From positions 3,072,001-3,136,000 of the forward strand of contig CBDDPY010000002.1 in NCBI GenBank assembly GCA_965232515.1: a stretch of 64,000 bases of DNA. The letters run 5' to 3'. This document shows positions 336 to 31,291 of the stretch, one piece after another; position 1 is the first letter of the stretch; each line of letters opens with the position of its first letter. Under the pieces are notes generated by a model. The model made no database searches, had not been told where the DNA came from, and saw nothing but the letters and a program-made list of their open reading frames with translations. This stretch comes from Alphaproteobacteria bacterium (GTDB lineage: Bacteria; Pseudomonadota; Alphaproteobacteria; GCA-2731375). The position numbers and the translations under genes were made by a program.

Positions 336-558
336 CCCCCTCTGTCGTCGGACCTGAGATATTCACCCGGCACGGCGGCGAACCGCGTATCGGGCTTCCC
401 CCTTCGGTGGAGCGCGTTCGGGTCTATCGAACACGCCCGCTTTCCAGAGAGCCATCCCCCTGCGGTCCGGGTGCCTGAGAGTTTCCGGGGCGGTTGCTCC
501 TTCGGCGGCGACCACGGCCTGTGGCCCGTCGCGCTCTCCCGCAGGGATCATCTGTATG
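336..558 (-). ncRNA. Tandem glycine riboswitch
   Basis: Minus strand: aptamer 1 GGAGAG...CCGAAGGAGCAA...AACTCTCAGGCA...GGAC; aptamer 2 CTCTGGAAAG...CACCGAAGG...ATCTCAGG...GACAGAG; directly 5' of gcvT. Confidence 0.95.
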
Positions 559-4435: not shown

Positions 4436-5481
4436 GCGCCGTCGCTCCACGGCCCGGCTGGCCGGTTGGGACCGGCGGATGCCGGCGGCGTTGTCGGCGC
4501 CGGCGGGGTCGGCCGCGGCGGGGATGGCGGCTGGCTGCCGTTACCCTGACCGCCTCCGGCGCCGAAGGCCTGCGCGGCGATTTCGCCGATGCCCCCCAGC
4601 GCGCCGATCACGGACGACGCCTCCAGCGGCATGAACAGAATCTTCTGGTTCGGCGAGGTGGCGAACTGGCCCAGCGCTTCGACGTAGCGCTGCGCCACGA
4701 AGTAATTGATCGATTGCACGTCGCCCTGCGCGATCGCCTCCGACACCATGGTCGTCGCCTTGGCCTCCGCTTCGGCCTCGCGCTCGCGTGCCTCGGCATC
4801 CCGGAAGGCGGCCTCGCGCCGGCCCTCGGCCTCCAGGATCGCGGACTGCTTCTGTCCCTCGGCGCGCAGGATCTCGGCGTTCCGATCACCCTCGGCTTCC
4901 AGAATCGTGGCCCGCTTTTCGCGCTCGGCCTTCATCTGCCGGGCCATGGCGTCGACCAGATCGCGCGGCGGCGCGATGTCCTTGATCTCGATCCGCGTGA
5001 CCTTCACGCCCCACGGCGTGGTCGCCTCGTCGACCACGGTCAACAGCCGGTGATTGATCTCGTCACGCTTGGACAGCAGTTCGTCCAGGTCCATGGAACC
5101 CATGACCGTCCGGATGTTGGTCATGGTCAGGTTCAAGGTTGCGAGCTCGAGCTGGCGAACCTCATAGGCCGCCTTGGCCGCATCCAGGATCTGATAAAAG
5201 ACCACACCGTCGACGGCCACCATGGCGTTGTCCTTGGTGATGACTTCCTGCGTCGGCACGTCCAGGACCTGCTCCATCATGTTCATTTTGGCGCCGATCC
5301 GGTCGATGATCGGTACGATCAGATGCAGGCCGGGCCGAAGTGTCCGCGTGTATCTGCCGAACCGCTCGACGGTGTATTCCATGCCCTGCTCGACAGACTT
5401 CACGCCCATCGCCACCAGCAACAACGCCAGCACGACAATGGCGAAGACGAAAATCGTAAATCCACTCAATGAAATGAACAT
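4432..5481 (-). CDS. SPFH/band 7 (stomatin-like, QmcA/YbbK) protein
   Basis: [40 protein letters not shown]; paired with NfeD. Confidence 0.93.
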
Positions 5482-5575
5482 GGCCCGATCCCCTTAACTA
5501 TTCCCATTGCCATGACCGTAACTTTGCCGCAGGCTGCCGCGATTACAACCGGAATAGCTGTATGGAAGTCCGGGC

Positions 5576-6061
5576 ATGCAAAGCCGCAGCCGAATTCATT
5601 CATTCCATCCCGATCGTTACGGCGACGTTAAGACGGCGGTACGCGCGCTGCTGCACGCCGCCGGCGGCGAGGCGAAAGCCGCCGAAATGTGCCGGGTTTC
5701 GAAGTCGACGCTGTCCGAATACGGCAATCCGGCGCATGCCGACCGGCATATGCCGATCGACGTCGTGCTGGCGCTGGAAACGGCCACCGGCGAAATGCCG
5801 GTCAGCGGACACCTGGCTGCAACGCAGGATTGTGTGCTGTTGCGCCTTCCCGATGCCGATGCGGAGCCGGAATGGCTGGCGCATCTGACCAATATCGGCA
5901 AGGAAGCAGGCGACGTCTTCAACCGGGCCGGCGAGTTCCTGGCAGATGACGGCGACATCGACGCAACCGAGGCGCCGGCGCTGCTGCGCGAAGTCGACGA
6001 ACTGCTGATGGCCGTTGCGGGCATGCGGGCCGCGGTGCGCGGCCGTCTGTCGACCGATTGA
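5576..6061 (+). CDS. Phage regulatory CII-like (CP76-type) HTH protein, orphan
   Basis: AAEMCRVSKSTLSEYGNP HTH-like segment, MPIDVVLALE, C-terminal KEAGDV...ADDGDIDATE...LLRE pattern resembling P2/186-type CII homologues. Confidence 0.6.
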   Translation: MQSRSRIHSFHPDRYGDVKTAVRALLHAAGGEAKAAEMCRVSKSTLSEYGNPAHADRHMPIDVVLALETATGEMPVSGHLAATQDCVLLRLPDADAEPEWLAHLTNIGKEAGDVFNRAGEFLADDGDIDATEAPALLREVDELLMAVAGMRAAVRGRLSTD

Positions 6062-6086
6062 TTCCGCCGAGCACCGGCCGGCCGGC

Positions 6087-6124
6087 AAAGAAAAACGCCG
6101 CCCGCTATGTTTCGGACGGCGTTT
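6087..6124 (-). terminator. Intrinsic terminator inside the arfA coding sequence
   Basis: Minus strand AAACGCCGTCCG-AAACATAG-CGGGCGGCGTTT followed by TTCTTT. Confidence 0.8.
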
Positions 6125-6229
6125 GTAGGAGCCCTTGCCCTTTTTGGCGCTGACCACCCGCTGTCGAAGCAACGGCTGGGTCAACGCGCGGGCGACCGGA
6201 TTGCCCGATCGTCTGATGCGCCGGCGCAT
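6087..6229 (-). CDS. arfA: Alternative ribosome-rescue factor A; transcript predicted to end at an internal terminator (frame has no stop until 5600)
   Basis: GGAGG RBS then MRRRIRRSGNPVARALTQPLLRQRVVSAKKGKGSYKRRPKH, matching the ArfA core N..AL..PL.RQRV...KKGKGSY.R..KH. Confidence 0.88.
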
Positions 6230-6277
6230 GTTCACCTCCATCGCTGGTTTGGTCCGCCTATGTAAACAAACAGAGGT

Positions 6278-6305
6278 AAAAGAAAAAGGGGCCGAAGCCC
6301 CTTTT
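6278..6305 (-). terminator. Intrinsic terminator of the peroxiredoxin gene
   Basis: Minus strand AAAAGGGGC-TTCG-GCCCCTTTT then TCTTTT; UUCG tetraloop. Confidence 0.88.
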
Positions 6306-6340
6306 CGATCACTATGGCCGGTTGAGGCGGGTATCTGGTC

Positions 6341-6826
6341 TCAGACCTGCCCCATGATGGTGTCGGCGCCGGATACGGCCATTTCGCCCGGGTTTTCCTC
6401 GATATTGATGGCCTTGACGGTACCGTCGTCGACCAGGATCGAGAACCGGGTCGCGCGCACGCCCATGCCACGGGCCGTCAGGTCAAGCTCAAGGCCCAGC
6501 TTCTTGGTGTAGTCGGCCGAACCGTCGGCCAACATCATCACTTTGTCGCCGGCGTTCTGGTCCTTGCCCCAGGCGCCCATGACGAAGGGGTCGTTCACCG
6601 ACATGCAGGCGATCGTGTCGACGCCCTTGGCCTTCAGATCGTCGGCATGCTGAACGTAGCTCGGTACGTGCTTGGCCGAGCAGGTCGGCGTAAATGCGCC
6701 CGGCAGTCCGAACAACACCACTTTCTTGCCCGAAAACAATTCGGATGTCGGCACCGGTTGCGGGCCACCGTCGCCCATCGTCATCATGGTGCCTTCCGGC
6801 ATCTTGTCCCCTACGCTGATCGTCAT
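6341..6826 (-). CDS. Peroxiredoxin, Prx5/type II
   Basis: PGAFTPTCSAKHVP, SVNDPFVMGAW; GGAGG RBS. Confidence 0.95.
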   Translation of the reverse strand: MTISVGDKMPEGTMMTMGDGGPQPVPTSELFSGKKVVLFGLPGAFTPTCSAKHVPSYVQHADDLKAKGVDTIACMSVNDPFVMGAWGKDQNAGDKVMMLADGSADYTKKLGLELDLTARGMGVRATRFSILVDDGTVKAINIEENPGEMAVSGADTIMGQV

Positions 6827-6973
6827 CGTCATCCCTCCAAGTGTCCCGGATTGCCCCGGCAATCCCCTGCGCACCGGCTTATAGCCGTCCGACGGTGCAT
6901 TGAAAAGCATGCCGCCCGAGGCGACAACGGAAATCGGTAAATGACGATCCGATCGGCCCGCTGGCGCGTCGAG

Positions 6974-21748: not shown

Positions 21749-23461
21749 CTACCGCCGCCTGCGGAAGCCGACCGATGTCAGCAAGGCGAGCAGGAACAGC
21801 GACCAACCGGGCGGCCCCGGCACCGCCTTGGCCTCAAACGTGAAAAACACCTTGTCCTGGATCTCGTCCGCGCCGGTGTTCCAACGGATCAGGTCGGCGA
21901 GCGACAACGAGTCGAGCCAGGCGATCGTTTCGGCACCGAACCGGCCGGCGGCATACCAGAACGGGTCGCCGTCCCTGAGCGCCTCGAACTGCTCCTTCAG
22001 GACGGTATGCAGGAGCTCGCCGACAACGCCGTCGCCGAACGGGTCCTCGGCCAGCGCGCCGACCCAGAAGTCGATGCCATCGGGGTTCATGATGCCGTTT
22101 TCAGAATAGGCATCGAAGACATGCTGCGGGATCGGCAGATCCGTGGTGCCGAGCGCATCGAGCCCGAGCAGAAGCCGAGCCTCCTCGTAACTCGGCAAGC
22201 CATGATCGCGGCCGCGCTGGATGTTCAGCGCGAACAGATCGACCAGGATCGCCATGCCCGGGCCCGTGATCAGGTTGTTGCGGACGGCATCGACGATCTG
22301 GTTGTCGATGGTCTGTGCATAGCGCTCGGCGAGACCGCGGAACACGGCATCGACACCGACGTCCTGCAGGCAGGTCGGATTGAAGAAGCAGTCGCCGAGC
22401 GGACGCACCTCGGTCGACCCGTCGCCGAAGCGGAAATGGAATTCATTGGAGAGCTGCGTATGCCCGAACCGGAACGTTCCCGTCGAAAACACGTTGCTGA
22501 TCGAGGGATCGACGTCGTCGCGGTAACCGGCATAGTCCGACAGCGCATCCGTTCCCAGCACCGTCGGCAGGTATTCGTTGACGGTGATAGCCTGGACCTG
22601 CGCGGCGACGATCTCGCGCGCGCGGTGATAGACCTGATCGCCGGAGAGGCCGGGATCGGCGGCTTTGATCCCATCGGCCAAGCGGTTGTGCTCGCGTAGA
22701 AACAGCGTGTGCAATGCGGTCAGCGCCGGATTTTCATTCGCGCGCTCATCGCCGGCGACGAACTGGCCGGAAGGATCGACGGGCAGCATGTCGCCCGCCG
22801 AGGTGCGGAGCTTGCCCGAGCCGTCATTCGCCCGCAGCGCGTTCGCCTGCGTTGCGTCAGACCCGTAAACGAACGAGGCGTCGATCCAGCTGGTGATTTG
22901 GTTGATCTGCTGTCGCGGCGTCGATCCGCCTGTCGCCGGATCGAAACGCGAGCGTTCGAACGGGATGGCGCCGGCGGCGCCGACGCTGTCGCCCGGCGGA
23001 ATCGGAATGTCGAACGATTCAGGGGCCAAGGTCGGCGGCTGGGTCAAATTGGTGTCGTGCGCCAGCATTTGGCCGAAGGCCCAGACCATGTCGCTCAAGC
23101 CGCGCGTATTGGGATTGGACGCGGTCTGCGCGCCGAGCTGGTTGCTGAGCTGGCGCGGATTCGGCCGCGCGGCGCCGGCCGGACTGTCGTTGCCGTCGGC
23201 ATAGCCGGACGACAGCCTTCGGCGAAGTTGTGTGCCCGCCCGACCGTAGGACGGATCGGCGGCCGCCACGTAAGAGCCGTCGAACGATCGGAAATCGCCG
23301 AAAACGTCGAAGCTGTCGGGAAAGGCCGTGATCACCTTGGCCTGTACCAGCGCCGGCAGCACGCACACGGCCATCCCCGGCCCGAAACCGGTTCGGATGG
23401 CGCGACCGCATCGTCGCAGAAACTTGCGATGCCGACGCATGGCCCCCACAGCAACTTTCAT
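21749..23461 (-). CDS. Animal-type heme peroxidase (peroxidase-cyclooxygenase superfamily) with PEP-CTERM-like tail; start uncertain
   Basis: GQMLAHD, TSWIDAS, GDERANE, LREHNR, FRFGH, NIQRGRDHG, LRDGDPFWY; C-terminus VPGPPGWSLFLLALLTSVGFRRRR. Confidence 0.9.
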   Translation of the reverse strand: MKVAVGAMRRHRKFLRRCGRAIRTGFGPGMAVCVLPALVQAKVITAFPDSFDVFGDFRSFDGSYVAAADPSYGRAGTQLRRRLSSGYADGNDSPAGAARPNPRQLSNQLGAQTASNPNTRGLSDMVWAFGQMLAHDTNLTQPPTLAPESFDIPIPPGDSVGAAGAIPFERSRFDPATGGSTPRQQINQITSWIDASFVYGSDATQANALRANDGSGKLRTSAGDMLPVDPSGQFVAGDERANENPALTALHTLFLREHNRLADGIKAADPGLSGDQVYHRAREIVAAQVQAITVNEYLPTVLGTDALSDYAGYRDDVDPSISNVFSTGTFRFGHTQLSNEFHFRFGDGSTEVRPLGDCFFNPTCLQDVGVDAVFRGLAERYAQTIDNQIVDAVRNNLITGPGMAILVDLFALNIQRGRDHGLPSYEEARLLLGLDALGTTDLPIPQHVFDAYSENGIMNPDGIDFWVGALAEDPFGDGVVGELLHTVLKEQFEALRDGDPFWYAAGRFGAETIAWLDSLSLADLIRWNTGADEIQDKVFFTFEAKAVPGPPGWSLFLLALLTSVGFRRRR

Positions 23462-23562: not shown

Positions 23563-24933
23563 TCAGTAGGCGCACTCGGTGAACAGCGGATCGACCGAGC
23601 CCTGCCAGCGGCCGTGGAAGCGTTCCAGCAGTTCTTCGGCCGGCGTCGTGCCCCGGTCGACGATGAGCTGCAGCGCCTCGAGATACTCCGTTTCGTCCGG
23701 CGCTGTACTGCCCTGGCGTCCGCGCGCCTTCAGACCGGACTCGGCGATGGCGATGACCTCGGCGGCAATGTCGCGCACCGCCCGGCCCCGGAACGCGGTT
23801 GCCAGCGCCGTCCGCGGCACCTCGTTGCGCAGCGTCTCGCGCTCCTCGGCCGTCCAGTCCTTGACCAGGTCCCAGGCCGCGTCCAGCGCAGAGCCGTCAT
23901 AGAGCAGGCCGACCCAGAGCGCCGGCAGCGCGCAGAGCCGGGCCCAGGGCCCGCCGTCGGCGCCGCGCATCTCCAGGAACCGCTTCATGCGGACTTCCGG
24001 GAACAGCGTCGTCAGATGGTCTTCCCAGTCGCGGATCGTCGGCCGCTCGCCCGGCAGGGCCGGCAGCTCGCCGGCCATGAACGACCGGAAGGACTGGCCG
24101 GTGGCGTCGATATACTTGCCGTCCCGGTAGACGAAATACATCGGCACGTCGAGCGCGTGGTCGGCATAGGCCTCAAAGCCGAAGCCGTCATCGAACACGA
24201 ACGGCAGCATGCCGGTGCGGTCGGGATCGGTATCGGTCCAGATATGGCTGCGGAAGCTGAGGAAACCGTTCGGCTGGTTCTCGGTGAACGGTGAATTGGC
24301 GAACAGCGCCGTCGCGATCGGCTGCAGTGCCAGGCCGACCCGGAACTTCTTCACCATGTCGGCTTCCGACGCGAAGTCCAGGTTCACCTGCACCGTGCAG
24401 GAGCGGAACATCATGTCGAGACCGAGATCGCCCTTGGCCGGCATATAACGCCGCATCAGGCCGTAGCGGCCCTTCGGCATCAGCGGCATGTCGGCGCGCG
24501 ACCATTTCGGATTGAAGCCGAGGCCGATGAAGCCGGCGCCGATCTCGCCCGCGACCTCCTTCACTTGGGCCAGGTGGGTATGCACCTCGTCGCAGGTCTG
24601 ATGCAGGGTTTCGAGCGCGGCGCCGGACAGTTCGAACTGTCCGCCCGGCTCGAGCGAGACCGAGGCGCCGCCCATGCTCAGCGCGATGACGTTGTCGCCC
24701 TCCATGACCGGCTGCCAGCCGAACCGCTGCAGGCCCTCCAGCATGGCACGGATGCCGCGATCGCCCGCATATTCGAGCGGCCGCAGATCGTCCAGGTGAT
24801 AGCCGAATTTTTCGTGTTCGGTGCCGATACGCCACGCGGACGCCGGCTTGCAGCCCTGCGCCAGATATTCGACGAGTTCGCGCTCGCTCGCGACCGGGCC
24901 AACCGGCACCTTGGACGGACTTAACATCGGCAT
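23563..24933 (-). CDS. gshA: Glutamate--cysteine ligase (alphaproteobacterial/plant type)
   Basis: [42 protein letters not shown]. Confidence 0.96.
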
Positions 24934-30167: not shown

Positions 30168-31235
30168 ATGACATCAATAAGGACACTCACGATCGCAGGC
30201 GTCGTCGGCACCGCGATGGCCGTGACGGCCGGCGGCGCATCGGCCGCCTGCAAGGACGATTGGAAGGACTGCAAAGGCAAGGCCTGGGTCGACGGCGATG
30301 TGATGGAGACGCCGCTGGGCTCGAAGTGGTGGCCGCATCCGATGTGGGGTGAAGGCGACGAGGCCGGCTCGACCAACTGGTACACCAAGCCGGAAGTGGT
30401 CATGCGCGCGGTCGCGATGATCAAGCAAGGCAAGACCATGCAGTTGGGGCACCAGTACGAGGCGGCGATGCCGATGTTCGGCGACCGAAAGTTCGTGCTG
30501 CGCATCCCCGGCACGCCGACCGGCGGCCCGTTCGGCGCCATGAAGCTGATGTACAACGATGAGTTCCTGTCGACCGAGATCGGTCAGGCCGGCACACAGT
30601 TCGACGGCCTGGGCCATATCGGCGTCGCCATCGGCGACCCGTCGGACAAGGCGAACATGCGCTGGTACAACGGCTTCACGGCCGCCGAAATGGGCTCGGC
30701 CTACGGTCTGCTCAAGCTCGGCACCGAGAAGCTGCATCCGATCATGGCCCGCGGCATCCTGCTCGACATCGCCGGCGCCCGCGGCGTCGAGGCCATGGAA
30801 GTAGGCGACCTCGTGACCATGGATGACGTCAGAGCCGCCCTGAAAAAACAGGGCATGGAGAACTTCCAGTTCATGCCCGGCGACGCCATCGTGATCCGCA
30901 CCGGTTGGTCGAAGTATTGGATCACCGACAACGAGAAGTACAACTCAGGTGTCCCGGGTATCGGCATGGAAGTCGCGCGCTGGATCGCCGAGGACGTACA
31001 GGCGGGCGTGACGGGTTTCGACACCTGGCCCGGCGACGCGGTGCCGAATCCGGATCCGGATTGCGTGTTCTGCGTGCACACCTACCTGCAGACACGGCAC
31101 GGCATCGTCAATCAGGAGAACCTGAACCTGACGCCGCTGGCCGAAGCGGGCGTGTATCAGTTCGCTTACTTCTACTCGCCGGTGCCGATCAAGGGCGCCA
31201 CCGGTTCGATCGGGCATCCGGTCGCCATGTGGTAA
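30168..31235 (+). CDS. Cyclase family (kynurenine formamidase-like) metallohydrolase with signal peptide
   Basis: WGEGDEAGSTN, GTQFDGLGH, GDAIVIRTGW, ENL, IKGATGS; N-terminal hydrophobic signal ending ASA. Confidence 0.9.
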   Translation: MTSIRTLTIAGVVGTAMAVTAGGASAACKDDWKDCKGKAWVDGDVMETPLGSKWWPHPMWGEGDEAGSTNWYTKPEVVMRAVAMIKQGKTMQLGHQYEAAMPMFGDRKFVLRIPGTPTGGPFGAMKLMYNDEFLSTEIGQAGTQFDGLGHIGVAIGDPSDKANMRWYNGFTAAEMGSAYGLLKLGTEKLHPIMARGILLDIAGARGVEAMEVGDLVTMDDVRAALKKQGMENFQFMPGDAIVIRTGWSKYWITDNEKYNSGVPGIGMEVARWIAEDVQAGVTGFDTWPGDAVPNPDPDCVFCVHTYLQTRHGIVNQENLNLTPLAEAGVYQFAYFYSPVPIKGATGSIGHPVAMW

Positions 31236-31257: not shown

Positions 31258-31291
31258 AAAGGGCGCGTCGCTGGACGCGCCCTTTTTCTTT
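31258..31291 (+). terminator. Intrinsic terminator after the cyclase gene
   Basis: AAAGGGCGCGTC-GCTG-GACGCGCCCTTT then TTCTTT. Confidence 0.9.

What the first reader, a model, noticed from the sequence alone, without database searches (positions are those of the whole stretch)
6087..6241. Alphaproteobacterial ArfA encoded on a built-in non-stop mRNA
Seen: an RBS followed by the ArfA core (PLLRQRVVSAKKGKGSYKRRPKH). The codons for KRRPKHSGRRF themselves form a 12-bp hairpin plus U-tract, so transcription should end near codon 46-47, just after the functional core. The next in-frame stop is about 490 nt further (5600). Known: in gamma/beta-proteobacteria arfA mRNA is truncated by RNase III or a terminator, so tmRNA tags and destroys ArfA unless trans-translation fails. 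Inference: the same negative-feedback backup rescue circuit runs here, in a class where ArfB and two-piece tmRNA are the better-studied routes. Gene callers would miss it or call a 213-aa protein.
Basis: partly seen in the sequence, partly recalled or inferred. Interest (0 to 1): 0.75.

Follow-up and report, generated by a model that had tools for sequence, protein, structure and literature searches.

The report
ArfA ribosome-rescue gene lacking a stop
A tiny gene in a probable alphaproteobacterial genome encodes a relative of the ribosome-rescue factor ArfA, and a transcription terminator inside it should cut the message before any stop codon, which matters because published surveys say this bacterial class has no ArfA.

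Summary
On the minus strand a GGAGG ribosome-binding site precedes an ATG at 6229. The 47-residue product matches Pfam ArfA above the curated cut-off (41.3 vs 25.5 bits) and aligns to E. coli ArfA residues 13-48.

Codons 36-46 fold into a 12-pair hairpin followed by a U tract. Only two sites of that strength occur in the 64 kb window. The next in-frame stop is 494 nt further on.

The 213-aa ORF is a shadow frame over a convergent phage CII-like gene; that gene's frame is the conserved one.

The same in-ORF hairpin plus T-rich tail occurs in 11 of 12 relatives from alphaproteobacterial or unclassified proteobacterial MAGs. It shows compensatory changes and its 3' arm is read in different frames.

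Best reading: ArfA made from a non-stop mRNA created by intrinsic termination, so it accumulates only when trans-translation fails. The feedback itself is inferred.

Reviews and two surveys say ArfA is absent from Alphaproteobacteria. NCBI and JGI pipelines already name such MAG proteins ArfA, and phages of alphaproteobacteria carry homologues.

Verdict: a new member of a known kind; moderate interest.

The parts
6235..6239 (-). Shine-Dalgarno GGAGG, 5 nt upstream of the ATG at 6229
   Evidence: Read directly. The block is also present in the syntenic locus L001.
6087..6229 (-). arfA coding part, about 47 codons, from the ATG to the predicted transcript end
   Evidence: Pfam PF03889 at 41.3 bits against a cut-off of 25.5. 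Aligns to E. coli ArfA 13-48. 41 of 47 residues identical in L001.
6093..6124 (-). 12-pair hairpin made from codons 36-46 (K-R-R-P-K-H-S-G-R-R-F)
   Evidence: -21.1 kcal/mol, z -4.77. Conserved with covariation in 12 sequences.
6087..6095 (-). U tract (TTTTTCTTT) after the G-C core of the stem; predicted transcript 3' end near 6089-6087
   Evidence: The position of the end is inference from how intrinsic terminators work.
5600..6086 (-). Read-through frame with no stop codon until 5600; judged not to be a real protein
   Evidence: Window against L001: 109 of 161 residues identical in this frame, against 152 of 161 in the opposite-strand gene.
5576..6061 (+). Convergent gene for a phage CII / CP76 / YmfL-like regulator, 161 aa; its stop lies 32 nt before the hairpin
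   Evidence: Pfam PF06892 at 46.2 bits. NCBIfam YmfL match below its cut-off. 31.6% identity to a Labrenzia phage gene.
6283..6306 (-). Terminator of the upstream peroxiredoxin gene, about 53 nt before the arfA start
6341..6910 (-). Upstream peroxiredoxin gene (Redoxin / AhpC-TSA)

Best explanation
The locus encodes a small ArfA-type alternative ribosome-rescue factor whose message is non-stop by design. Translation starts at 6229. The codons for the basic tail (K-R-R-P) and the following codons (G-R-R-F) pair into a G+C-rich stem followed by a U tract. RNA polymerase would therefore terminate at about codon 47, with no stop codon on the transcript.

Ribosomes reaching that 3' end would normally be resolved by tmRNA-SmpB, which tags the nascent ArfA for degradation. 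When trans-translation is saturated or lost, untagged ArfA of about 46-47 residues would accumulate. Its tail would bind the empty mRNA tunnel of stalled ribosomes and it would recruit a release factor (RF2 in E. coli).

Shown here: family membership, the hairpin and U tract, the absence of a stop before them, and their conservation in relatives. Inferred: the transcript end, the tagging, and RF2 recruitment.

The gene was probably acquired horizontally, possibly through phages.
For: Family:
- Pfam ArfA above the gathering score.
- Alignment to E. coli ArfA 13-48. This covers the A-site segment with the conserved proline (window P19 aligned to E. coli P23) and the tunnel-binding tail 31-48. 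Roles are from passages of PMC5378476.
- The predicted end corresponds to E. coli residues 50-51. That is beyond Asn47, the shortest truncation reported active.

Hairpin:
-.
- Only 2 sites of this strength in 64 kb.

Conservation:
Of these, 11 carry alphaproteobacterial titles and L005 is titled only 'Proteobacteria'.
- 11 of these 12 loci have a stem over the R-R-P codons, then a T-rich tail, with no stop before it. L008 is the exception.
- On the 12-row alignment (window plus 11 loci), 95.5% of cells pair, against 35-63% with partners slid by 1-3 columns.
- Pair 21-53 occurs as A-U 5, C-G 3, G-C 3. Pair 27-47 occurs as U-G 6, U-A 5, C-G 1.
- The covariation score is 0.222 against 0.129 for shuffles, reached by 0 of 500.
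- Loop lengths differ and the 3' arm is read in different frames (G-R-R-F, G-G-A-F, D-G-G-S). This argues for selection on the RNA rather than the protein.

Long ORF not real.

Precedent:
- E. coli arfA transcripts end just after the inverted repeat even without RNase III (PMC3989581 passages).
- B. subtilis brfA has a rho-independent terminator before its stop (PMC8012679 passages).
Against: - No transcript, protein or activity data exist for this or any related locus.
- No sigma-70-like promoter was found between the peroxiredoxin terminator and the start (0 sites), so expression is unproven.
- Pfam profile positions 1-16 are unmatched. The N-terminus is basic and 4 residues shorter than the hydrophobic E. 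coli minidomain needed to open RF2. Ala18 of E. coli aligns with Arg14.
- Covariation rests mainly on one pair with changes on both sides. The 5' arm is constrained by conserved codons and the sequences are related.
- T-rich tails are weak in L009-L011 and L014.
- In L002 the stop begins only 8 nt after the stem core, and in L009-L011 14 nt, so some transcripts there may carry a stop.
- L008 and the four Verrucomicrobiota loci end at ordinary stops, so a non-stop design is not universal in the family.
- A long open antisense frame is common in DNA of 62-70% G+C, so the 494-nt distance to the stop is not itself meaningful.
- No ssrA, smpB, prfB or arfB lies in the window.
Confidence: 0.7

Rival explanations
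1. The same ArfA and non-stop logic applies, but the hairpin acts mainly as a cleavage site for RNase III or another nuclease, as in E. coli, rather than as an intrinsic terminator.
For: E. coli arfA mRNA is cut by RNase III in its stem-loop (PMC3989581 and PMC8012679 passages). A perfect 12-pair stem could be a substrate. In L009-L011 and L014 the T tract is weak while the stem is strong.
Against: 8 of the 12 sequences carry 6-8 T in the 9 nt after the G-C core, the canonical terminator form. A 12-pair stem is short for RNase III (recalled knowledge). Nothing here tests cleavage.
Confidence: 0.12
2. The peptide gene is a silent or decaying remnant of a phage or mobile element. The hairpin then serves as the end signal for the convergent CII-like gene and neighbouring transcription.
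For: - arfA is paired tail-to-tail with a phage-type CII-like gene.
- No promoter was detected.
- Homologues occur in phages of alphaproteobacteria.
- Three of the 11 other loci examined (L004, L006, L007) have HicB-like or DNA-methylase neighbours.
Against: - ArfA is 41 of 47 identical between the window and L001, with Shine-Dalgarno site and start kept.
- The hairpin travels with arfA into unrelated neighbourhoods that lack the CII-like gene.
- On the plus strand the stem has no T tract after it, and the scan reports no plus-strand terminator there.
Confidence: 0.1
3. The 213-aa (or 209-aa) ORF is a real protein with an ArfA-like N-terminus.
For: The frame is open for 642 nt with GC3 0.75.
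Against: - The tail is only 68% identical to L001, while the opposite-strand gene is 94% identical and has a Pfam family.
- The tails of relatives are unrelated to each other.
- The exact sequences are absent from the protein collection.
Confidence: 0.02

Closest known systems
E. coli ArfA (YhdL), Pfam PF03889
   Same: Shares the P-L-(L/F)-R-Q-R-V ... K-K-G-K-G-S-Y ... K-H core. A stem-loop lies inside the ORF before the stop, and the mRNA is expected to be non-stop. Premature termination at the stem is documented in E. coli.
   Different: - The N-terminus is basic and 4 residues shorter, and is unmatched by the profile.
- The tail reads R-R-P-K-H instead of R-K-G-K-H.
- The stem is built from the tail codons themselves, giving a product of about 46-47 aa.
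- The signal is a terminator with a U tract, whereas E. coli relies mainly on RNase III.
- The host class is reported to lack ArfA.
Neisseria gonorrhoeae ArfA (Schaub et al. 2012)
   Same: As I recall it, the non-stop arfA mRNA there is made by an intrinsic terminator inside the ORF rather than by RNase III.
   Different: This is recalled only: the paper is not held and no passage I read states it. It is a betaproteobacterium.
Bacillus subtilis BrfA
   Same: A small RF2-dependent rescue factor with a rho-independent terminator before its stop codon, controlled by trans-translation (PMC8012679 passages).
   Different: Its sequence is unrelated. The window peptide is a true PF03889 member.
ArfA-like genes of phages infecting alphaproteobacteria
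   Same: - Ochrobactrum phage vB_OspM_OC p093, annotated putative ArfA, has 55.9% identity and its own in-ORF hairpin plus T tract.
- Roseobacter phage CRP-212 has 62.9% identity.
- Pelagiphage HTVC027P gp30 and Citromicrobium phage RXM g10 are reported as ArfA.
   Different: These are phage-borne. The CRP-212 copy ends at a normal stop. None is close enough to be a direct donor.
ArfB and two-piece tmRNA of Caulobacter
   Same: The same cellular problem, rescue of non-stop ribosomes in Alphaproteobacteria (PMC4235212 passages).
   Different: ArfB is itself a GGQ hydrolase and is unrelated in sequence. None is encoded in this window.

Membership tests
ArfA (PF03889) | Match to the family HMM above the curated gathering score | tested here: met
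   41.3 bits against 25.5, E 1e-10, profile positions 17-44 of 44. 118 of the 120 listed relatives carry a precomputed PF03889.
ArfA (PF03889) | Positively charged C-terminal tail that fills the mRNA tunnel (E. coli aa 31-48) | tested here: met
   Window residues 27-44 align to E. coli 31-48, with K-K-G-K-G-S-Y and K-H identical. The role is from PMC5378476 passages. Binding itself was not tested.
ArfA (PF03889) | Mid-region lying in the A site, with the proline that contacts A1492/A1493 (E. coli H21-E30, P23) | tested here: met
   P19-L-L-R-Q-R-V aligns to P23-L-F-R-Q-R-V.
ArfA (PF03889) | Hydrophobic N-terminal minidomain (aa 2-16, Ala18) that switches RF2 to its open form | tested here: inconclusive
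   Profile positions 1-16 are unmatched. Window residues 1-8 are basic (M-R-R-R-I-R-R-S). Ala18 aligns to Arg14. A different conserved N-P-x-A-x-x-L motif is present in relatives.
ArfA (PF03889) | Made from an mRNA truncated inside the ORF (non-stop) | tested here: met
   At the sequence level only: hairpin plus U tract with no prior stop in the window and in 11 of 12 related alphaproteobacterial or unclassified proteobacterial loci. Transcript ends cannot be mapped with these tools.
ArfA (PF03889) | RF2-dependent peptidyl-tRNA hydrolysis on non-stop ribosomes; synthetic lethality with ssrA | not testable with these tools
   Needs biochemistry and genetics. No prfB, ssrA or smpB lies in the window.
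Intrinsic (rho-independent) terminator | G+C-rich stem directly followed by a U tract | tested here: met
   12 pairs, 8 G-C, then TTTTTCTTT after the G-C core. z -4.77.
Intrinsic (rho-independent) terminator | Transcript 3' ends mapped in the U tract | not testable with these tools
   No transcript data are available.

The most novel reading that the evidence does not exclude
This is one representative of a distinct ArfA subfamily, marked by a basic N-terminus, an N-P-x-A-x-x-L motif and an R-R-P-K-H tail.

- The codons of the tunnel-binding tail double as the 5' arm of the terminator that makes the mRNA non-stop.
- The subfamily would be spread sporadically, perhaps by phages and other mobile elements, into Alphaproteobacteria and beyond. 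That contradicts the repeated statement that ArfA is confined to beta- and gammaproteobacteria.
- Its divergent N-terminus may mean a different way of engaging the release factor.
Probability: 0.35. Interest if true: 0.6.

Novelty: new member of a known kind. Interest (0 to 1): 0.5.

Why it matters
Reviews and two genome surveys state that ArfA is limited to some beta- and gammaproteobacteria and is absent from Alphaproteobacteria:
- 0 of 2,376 genomes by nucleotide profiles;
- 'not present' by the Pfam HMM on annotated complete proteomes.

This locus and its relatives show that the family does reach that class. It is missed because the ORF has no stop codon, is tiny and is poorly called.

It also shows the self-limiting non-stop design rebuilt with a different hairpin sequence, made from the tail codons themselves. 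That argues the feedback through trans-translation, and not just the peptide, is what selection keeps.

Homologues in phages of alphaproteobacteria point to a route of spread. They also raise the idea that phages use ArfA during infection.

In practical terms, rescue-pathway inventories, and arguments about whether tmRNA is essential, should be based on six-frame searches rather than on annotated proteomes.

Tried and rejected
- The word-indexed protein search with the 47-aa peptide found nothing. The full HMMER scan and the profile search later found relatives, so that blank was a sensitivity limit.
- NCBIfam gave no family for the peptide at E <= 1e-5.
- Rfam at gathering threshold found only two glycine riboswitch aptamers, and ARAGORN found no tRNA or tmRNA. 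The window therefore says nothing about ssrA.
- The promoter scan found 0 sites in 5400-6600. I looked by eye at the block shared with L001 upstream of the Shine-Dalgarno site but could not assign a promoter.
- The covariance-model search recovered all 12 hairpin sequences at 58-79 bits. Its alignment A3 mixed in reverse-strand and weak matches, so I did not count pairs on it.
- MAFFT misaligned the 3' arm of L014 in A2. That accounts for part of the unpaired cells.
- My hairpin table script stopped with an error at L012, so the 12 gamma-type loci and the 4 Verrucomicrobiota loci were not tabulated. Its loop limit also mis-scored L011. For those loci I rely on the folds.
- Bidirectional terminator for the CII-like gene: rejected as the main role. 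There is no T tract on the plus strand, and the hairpin follows arfA into other contexts.
- I did not run structure or complex prediction. The peptide is short and disordered off the ribosome, and the cognate RF2 is not in the window.
- Schaub et al. 2012 is not held.

Full report
**What is there.** On the minus strand, GGAGG (6239-6235) lies 5 nt before an ATG at 6229. The ORF lister starts the frame at an ATG at 6241 that overlaps this ribosome-binding site, and runs it to a stop at 5600-5602, giving 213 aa.

The first 47 codons from 6229 match Pfam PF03889 (ArfA) at 41.3 bits, E 1e-10, against a curated cut-off of 25.5. The match covers residues 15-42 on profile positions 17-44 of 44. A phmmer search of PDB sequences returns six distinct E. 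coli ArfA chain sequences (E 1.6e-6 to 6.4e-6). Window residues 9-44 align to ArfA 13-48. The five other matches are unrelated, at E above 0.03.

**The hairpin.** Codons 36-46 (K-R-R-P-K-H-S-G-R-R-F) form a stem at 6124..6093: 12 pairs, 8 of them G-C, one G-U, with a loop of 8. After the G-C core the sequence reads TTTTTCTTT.
- Folded alone it gives -21.1 kcal/mol, against -8.56 +/- 2.63 for 200 shuffles (z -4.77; none as good).
- In a 66-nt frame that includes G+C-rich flanks the z-score is only -1.5.
- The number of terminator-like sites in the 1.2 kb around it (3, against 1.3 +/- 1.3 expected) is not significant in itself.
- A stricter scan of my own finds just two such sites in the 64 kb on both strands. 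The other, at 31258-31285, sits between convergent genes.

If release occurs 7-9 nt after the stem core, as established knowledge of intrinsic terminators suggests, the transcript ends near 6089-6087, in codons 47-48. No stop codon lies before that point.

**The long ORF is not a protein.** Downstream of the hairpin the frame runs antisense to a plus-strand gene, 5576-6061. That gene matches Pfam Phage_CP76 (phage regulatory protein CII) at 46.2 bits. Its NCBIfam YmfL match is below cut-off.

The syntenic locus L001 shares 82-90% nucleotide identity, with peroxiredoxin 89%, the CII-like gene 95% and the SPFH protein 98% identical at the protein level. Against L001:
- the ArfA part is 41 of 47 identical;
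- the CII-like protein is 152 of 161 identical;
- the read-through frame is only 109 of 161 identical, with an indel.

Selection therefore acts on ArfA and on the opposite-strand gene, not on the 160-codon tail. A long open antisense frame is unremarkable in DNA of 62-70% G+C. The 494-nt distance to the stop is therefore not evidence by itself.

**Relatives.**
- The word-indexed search found nothing.
- HMMER against 1.84 billion representatives found 48 proteins at E <= 1e-3 and none at <= 1e-10. The best was 78% identical. One of the 48, of 1,282 aa, had no aligned stretch.
- A profile of 22 sequences (A1) then found 2,051 proteins at E <= 1e-3. Of the 120 listed, 118 carry a precomputed PF03889.

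By record title they are:

| Title group | Loci | Count |
|---|---|---|
| Alphaproteobacteria (Rhodospirillales, Thalassospiraceae, Hyphomicrobiales, Rhizobiaceae, Rhodobacteraceae, Magnetospira, unclassified) | L001-L004, L006-L011, L014 | 11 |
| 'Proteobacteria' | L005 | 1 |
| Moraxellaceae | L012, L013, L015, L017, L019-L021, L024, L026 | 9 |
| 'Pseudomonadota' | L018, L022 | 2 |
| 'bacterium' | L016 | 1 |
| Verrucomicrobiota | L023, L025, L027, L028 | 4 |

The window's own genome is not among them.

**Is the window alphaproteobacterial?** The evidence is indirect.
- There is synteny and 82-90% identity with L001, titled 'Alphaproteobacteria bacterium'.
- The gene content is ordinary core chromosome. 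I recognise it, from my own knowledge, as typical of that class: alternative-type thrB, thrC with M16 peptidases next to the ctaCDBGE oxidase cluster, plant-type glutamate-cysteine ligase, and the PRK07559 dCTP deaminase.

**Conservation of the design.** Folds were made from the K-G-K-G codons onward. They show a strong stem starting in the (K/R/N)-R-R-P codons, followed by a T-rich tail, in the window and in L001-L007, L009-L011 and L014. That is 11 of the 12 alphaproteobacterial or 'Proteobacteria' loci. L008 instead ends at an ordinary stop (..K-H-R-A-A-T-V) and has no T tract.

I left L008 out and aligned the other 12 sequences (A2). For an 11-pair stem:
- 95.5% of 132 cells pair, against 35.5-62.9% when partners are slid by 1-3 columns;
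- five pairs never vary;
- pair 21-53 appears as A-U (5), C-G (3) and G-C (3);
- pair 27-47 appears as U-G (6), U-A (5) and C-G (1);
- pair 20-54 appears as A-U (9) and G-U (3);
- the covariation score is 0.222, against 0.129 +/- 0.021 for shuffles, reached by 0 of 500.

Only one pair changes on both sides, and 439 of 500 shuffles also give at least one such pair. The sequences are related, and the 5' arm is held by conserved codons. This is therefore support, not proof. Some unpaired cells come from MAFFT misplacing the 3' arm of L014.

Two further points favour selection on RNA.
- The loop varies from 6 to 16 nt.
- The 3' arm is translated in different frames (G-R-R-F, G-G-A-F, D-G-A-F, D-G-G-S) while complementarity is kept.

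A covariance model built from A2 recovers all 12 at 58-79 bits and L008 at only 29 bits.

The first in-frame stop begins at these distances after the stem core:

| Locus | Distance to stop (nt) |
|---|---|
| Window | 494 |
| L001 | 548 |
| L003-L007, L014 | 63-107 |
| L009-L011 | 14 |
| L002 | 8 |

What is conserved is 'no stop before the terminator', not the length of the tail.

**Mechanism.** E. coli ArfA is made from an mRNA truncated in a stem-loop, by RNase III or by premature termination at the stem. It is tagged by tmRNA and degraded unless trans-translation fails (passages of PMC4235212, PMC3989581 and PMC8012679). B. subtilis BrfA uses a rho-independent terminator before its stop for the same purpose.

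From passages of PMC5378476, for E. coli ArfA:
- residues 21-30 lie in the A site, with Pro23 against A1492/A1493;
- residues 31-48 fill the mRNA tunnel;
- truncation at Asn47 leaves activity, while truncation after Met40 abolishes it;
- the hydrophobic N-terminal minidomain (aa 2-16, Ala18) is needed to open RF2.

With window residue n corresponding to E. coli n+4:
- P19 corresponds to P23;
- residues 27-44 correspond to the tunnel tail;
- the predicted end (46-47) corresponds to residues 50-51, long enough for activity.

The N-terminus differs. It is 4 residues shorter, strongly basic, and unmatched by the Pfam profile. Ala18 aligns to Arg14. Relatives instead conserve N-P-x-A-x-x-L (A13 and L16 are invariant in A1). 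Whether this still activates RF2 is open.

My best reading, at confidence 0.7, is the ArfA non-stop feedback circuit driven by intrinsic termination. An RNase cleavage variant stands at 0.12, a silent mobile remnant at 0.10, and a real 213-aa protein at 0.02.

**Origin.** The neighbourhoods differ among relatives.
- Only L001 shares the window's flanks.
- L009-L011 share a prs - arfA - TauE arrangement.
- L004, L006 and L007 have HicB-like or DNA-methylase neighbours.
- In the window and L001, arfA is tail-to-tail with a phage-type CII-like gene. Its best phage match is in a Labrenzia (Roseibium) phage, at 31.6% identity.

A tblastn of the peptide against 50,697 phage records finds 5 records:
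- Roseobacter phage CRP-212, 62.9% identity;
- three Salmonella records, at least two of which are bacterial genome contigs to judge by their names.

The Ochrobactrum phage gene has its own in-ORF hairpin and T tract. The CRP-212 copy is a 41-codon ORF with a normal stop. Two papers report ArfA genes in a pelagiphage and in a Citromicrobium phage (passages). Horizontal spread, possibly by phages, is plausible but not shown.

**Known or new.** Published statements:
- arfA was found in 0 of 2,376 alphaproteobacterial genomes by nhmmer profiles (PMC11633108, Table 1 as quoted in the passages).
- It is 'not present in Alphaproteobacteria' by the Pfam HMM on annotated complete proteomes (PMC10070815 passages).

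My searches of the held library found no paper describing a chromosomal alphaproteobacterial ArfA or its terminator.

Databases are ahead of the literature:
- NCBI names L005's protein 'ribosome alternative rescue factor ArfA [Proteobacteria bacterium]';
- NCBI names another 'alternative ribosome rescue factor ArfA [Alphaproteobacteria bacterium]';
- JGI uses 'stalled ribosome alternative rescue factor ArfA'.

The kind of system and its regulatory logic are known. The host class, the compact hairpin made from the tail codons, and the divergent N-terminus are the new parts. I rate it a new member of a known kind, interest 0.5.

**Left unchecked.** Only one narrow genome scan was possible, so the frequency of this gene in Alphaproteobacteria is unknown. 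Supplementary tables of the two surveys were not opened. Schaub et al. 2012 is not held, so what I say of Neisseria is recalled.

Noticed in passing
L012, L013, L015-L022, L024, L026 (about 20-60 nt after the K-G-K-G codons): The 12 loci titled Moraxellaceae, Pseudomonadota or 'bacterium' carry an ArfA-like ORF (tail R-R-P-R-N..D-S-G-P). All have a hairpin of different sequence (AGGCCCCG.AATC / GATT.CGGGGCCT) at the same place, mostly followed by a T-rich tail and with no stop before it. L015 shows a compensatory change. This is the same design built from another stem.
   Followed up: partly
L008; L023, L025, L027, L028; proteins P0014, P0018-P0020, P0024, P0028: Some family members end at an ordinary stop 2-10 codons after the K-H motif. 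In the four Verrucomicrobiota loci a classical terminator follows the stop, and the N-terminus is different (..K-P-R-V-R-I-K-W-N-T-G..). Not all ArfA-like peptides appear to be made from non-stop mRNAs.
   Followed up: partly
L029:1198-1323 (Roseobacter phage CRP-212): A 41-codon ArfA-like ORF with a normal stop lies out of frame inside the 3' part of the annotated large gene gp38. It is not annotated itself.
   Followed up: partly
L030:1180-1377 (Ochrobactrum phage vB_OspM_OC p093): This phage gene, annotated as putative ArfA, has a hairpin plus T tract inside its ORF over the K-G-K-G-A-Y..K-P-L-F codons, before its stop. A phage copy may use the same non-stop trick.
   Followed up: partly
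window 5576-6061 (+): A phage CII / CP76 / YmfL-like regulator gene sits alone between core genes (SPFH/NfeD pair and peroxiredoxin), tail-to-tail with arfA. It is 94% conserved in L001. No integrase or tRNA gene is nearby. The convergent 3' ends could allow antisense interplay, as reported for E. coli arfA-mscL (PMC10070815, abstract in the listing).
   Followed up: partly
window 338-551 (-): A tandem glycine riboswitch: two aptamers, at 70.5 and 32.7 bits. The second is barely above the gathering score. It points toward the window start.
   Followed up: no
window 31258-31285: The only other strong hairpin with T-rich tails in the window. It scores on both strands, so it is a likely bidirectional terminator between the genes ending at 31235 (+) and 31438 (-).
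   Followed up: no
window 21749-23461 (-): A 570-aa protein matches Pfam 'Animal haem peroxidase' across the full profile (E 2.5e-130). A plant-type glutamate-cysteine ligase lies next to it at 23563-24933.
   Followed up: no
L009-L011: Three Rhodospirillales or Alphaproteobacteria MAGs share a prs (ribose-phosphate pyrophosphokinase) - arfA - TauE/SafE exporter neighbourhood. In all three the peptide ends ..G-G-S-L-L-(G/A) with a stop 14 nt after the stem. In L011 prs is on the opposite strand, downstream of TauE, so the order differs there.
   Followed up: partly
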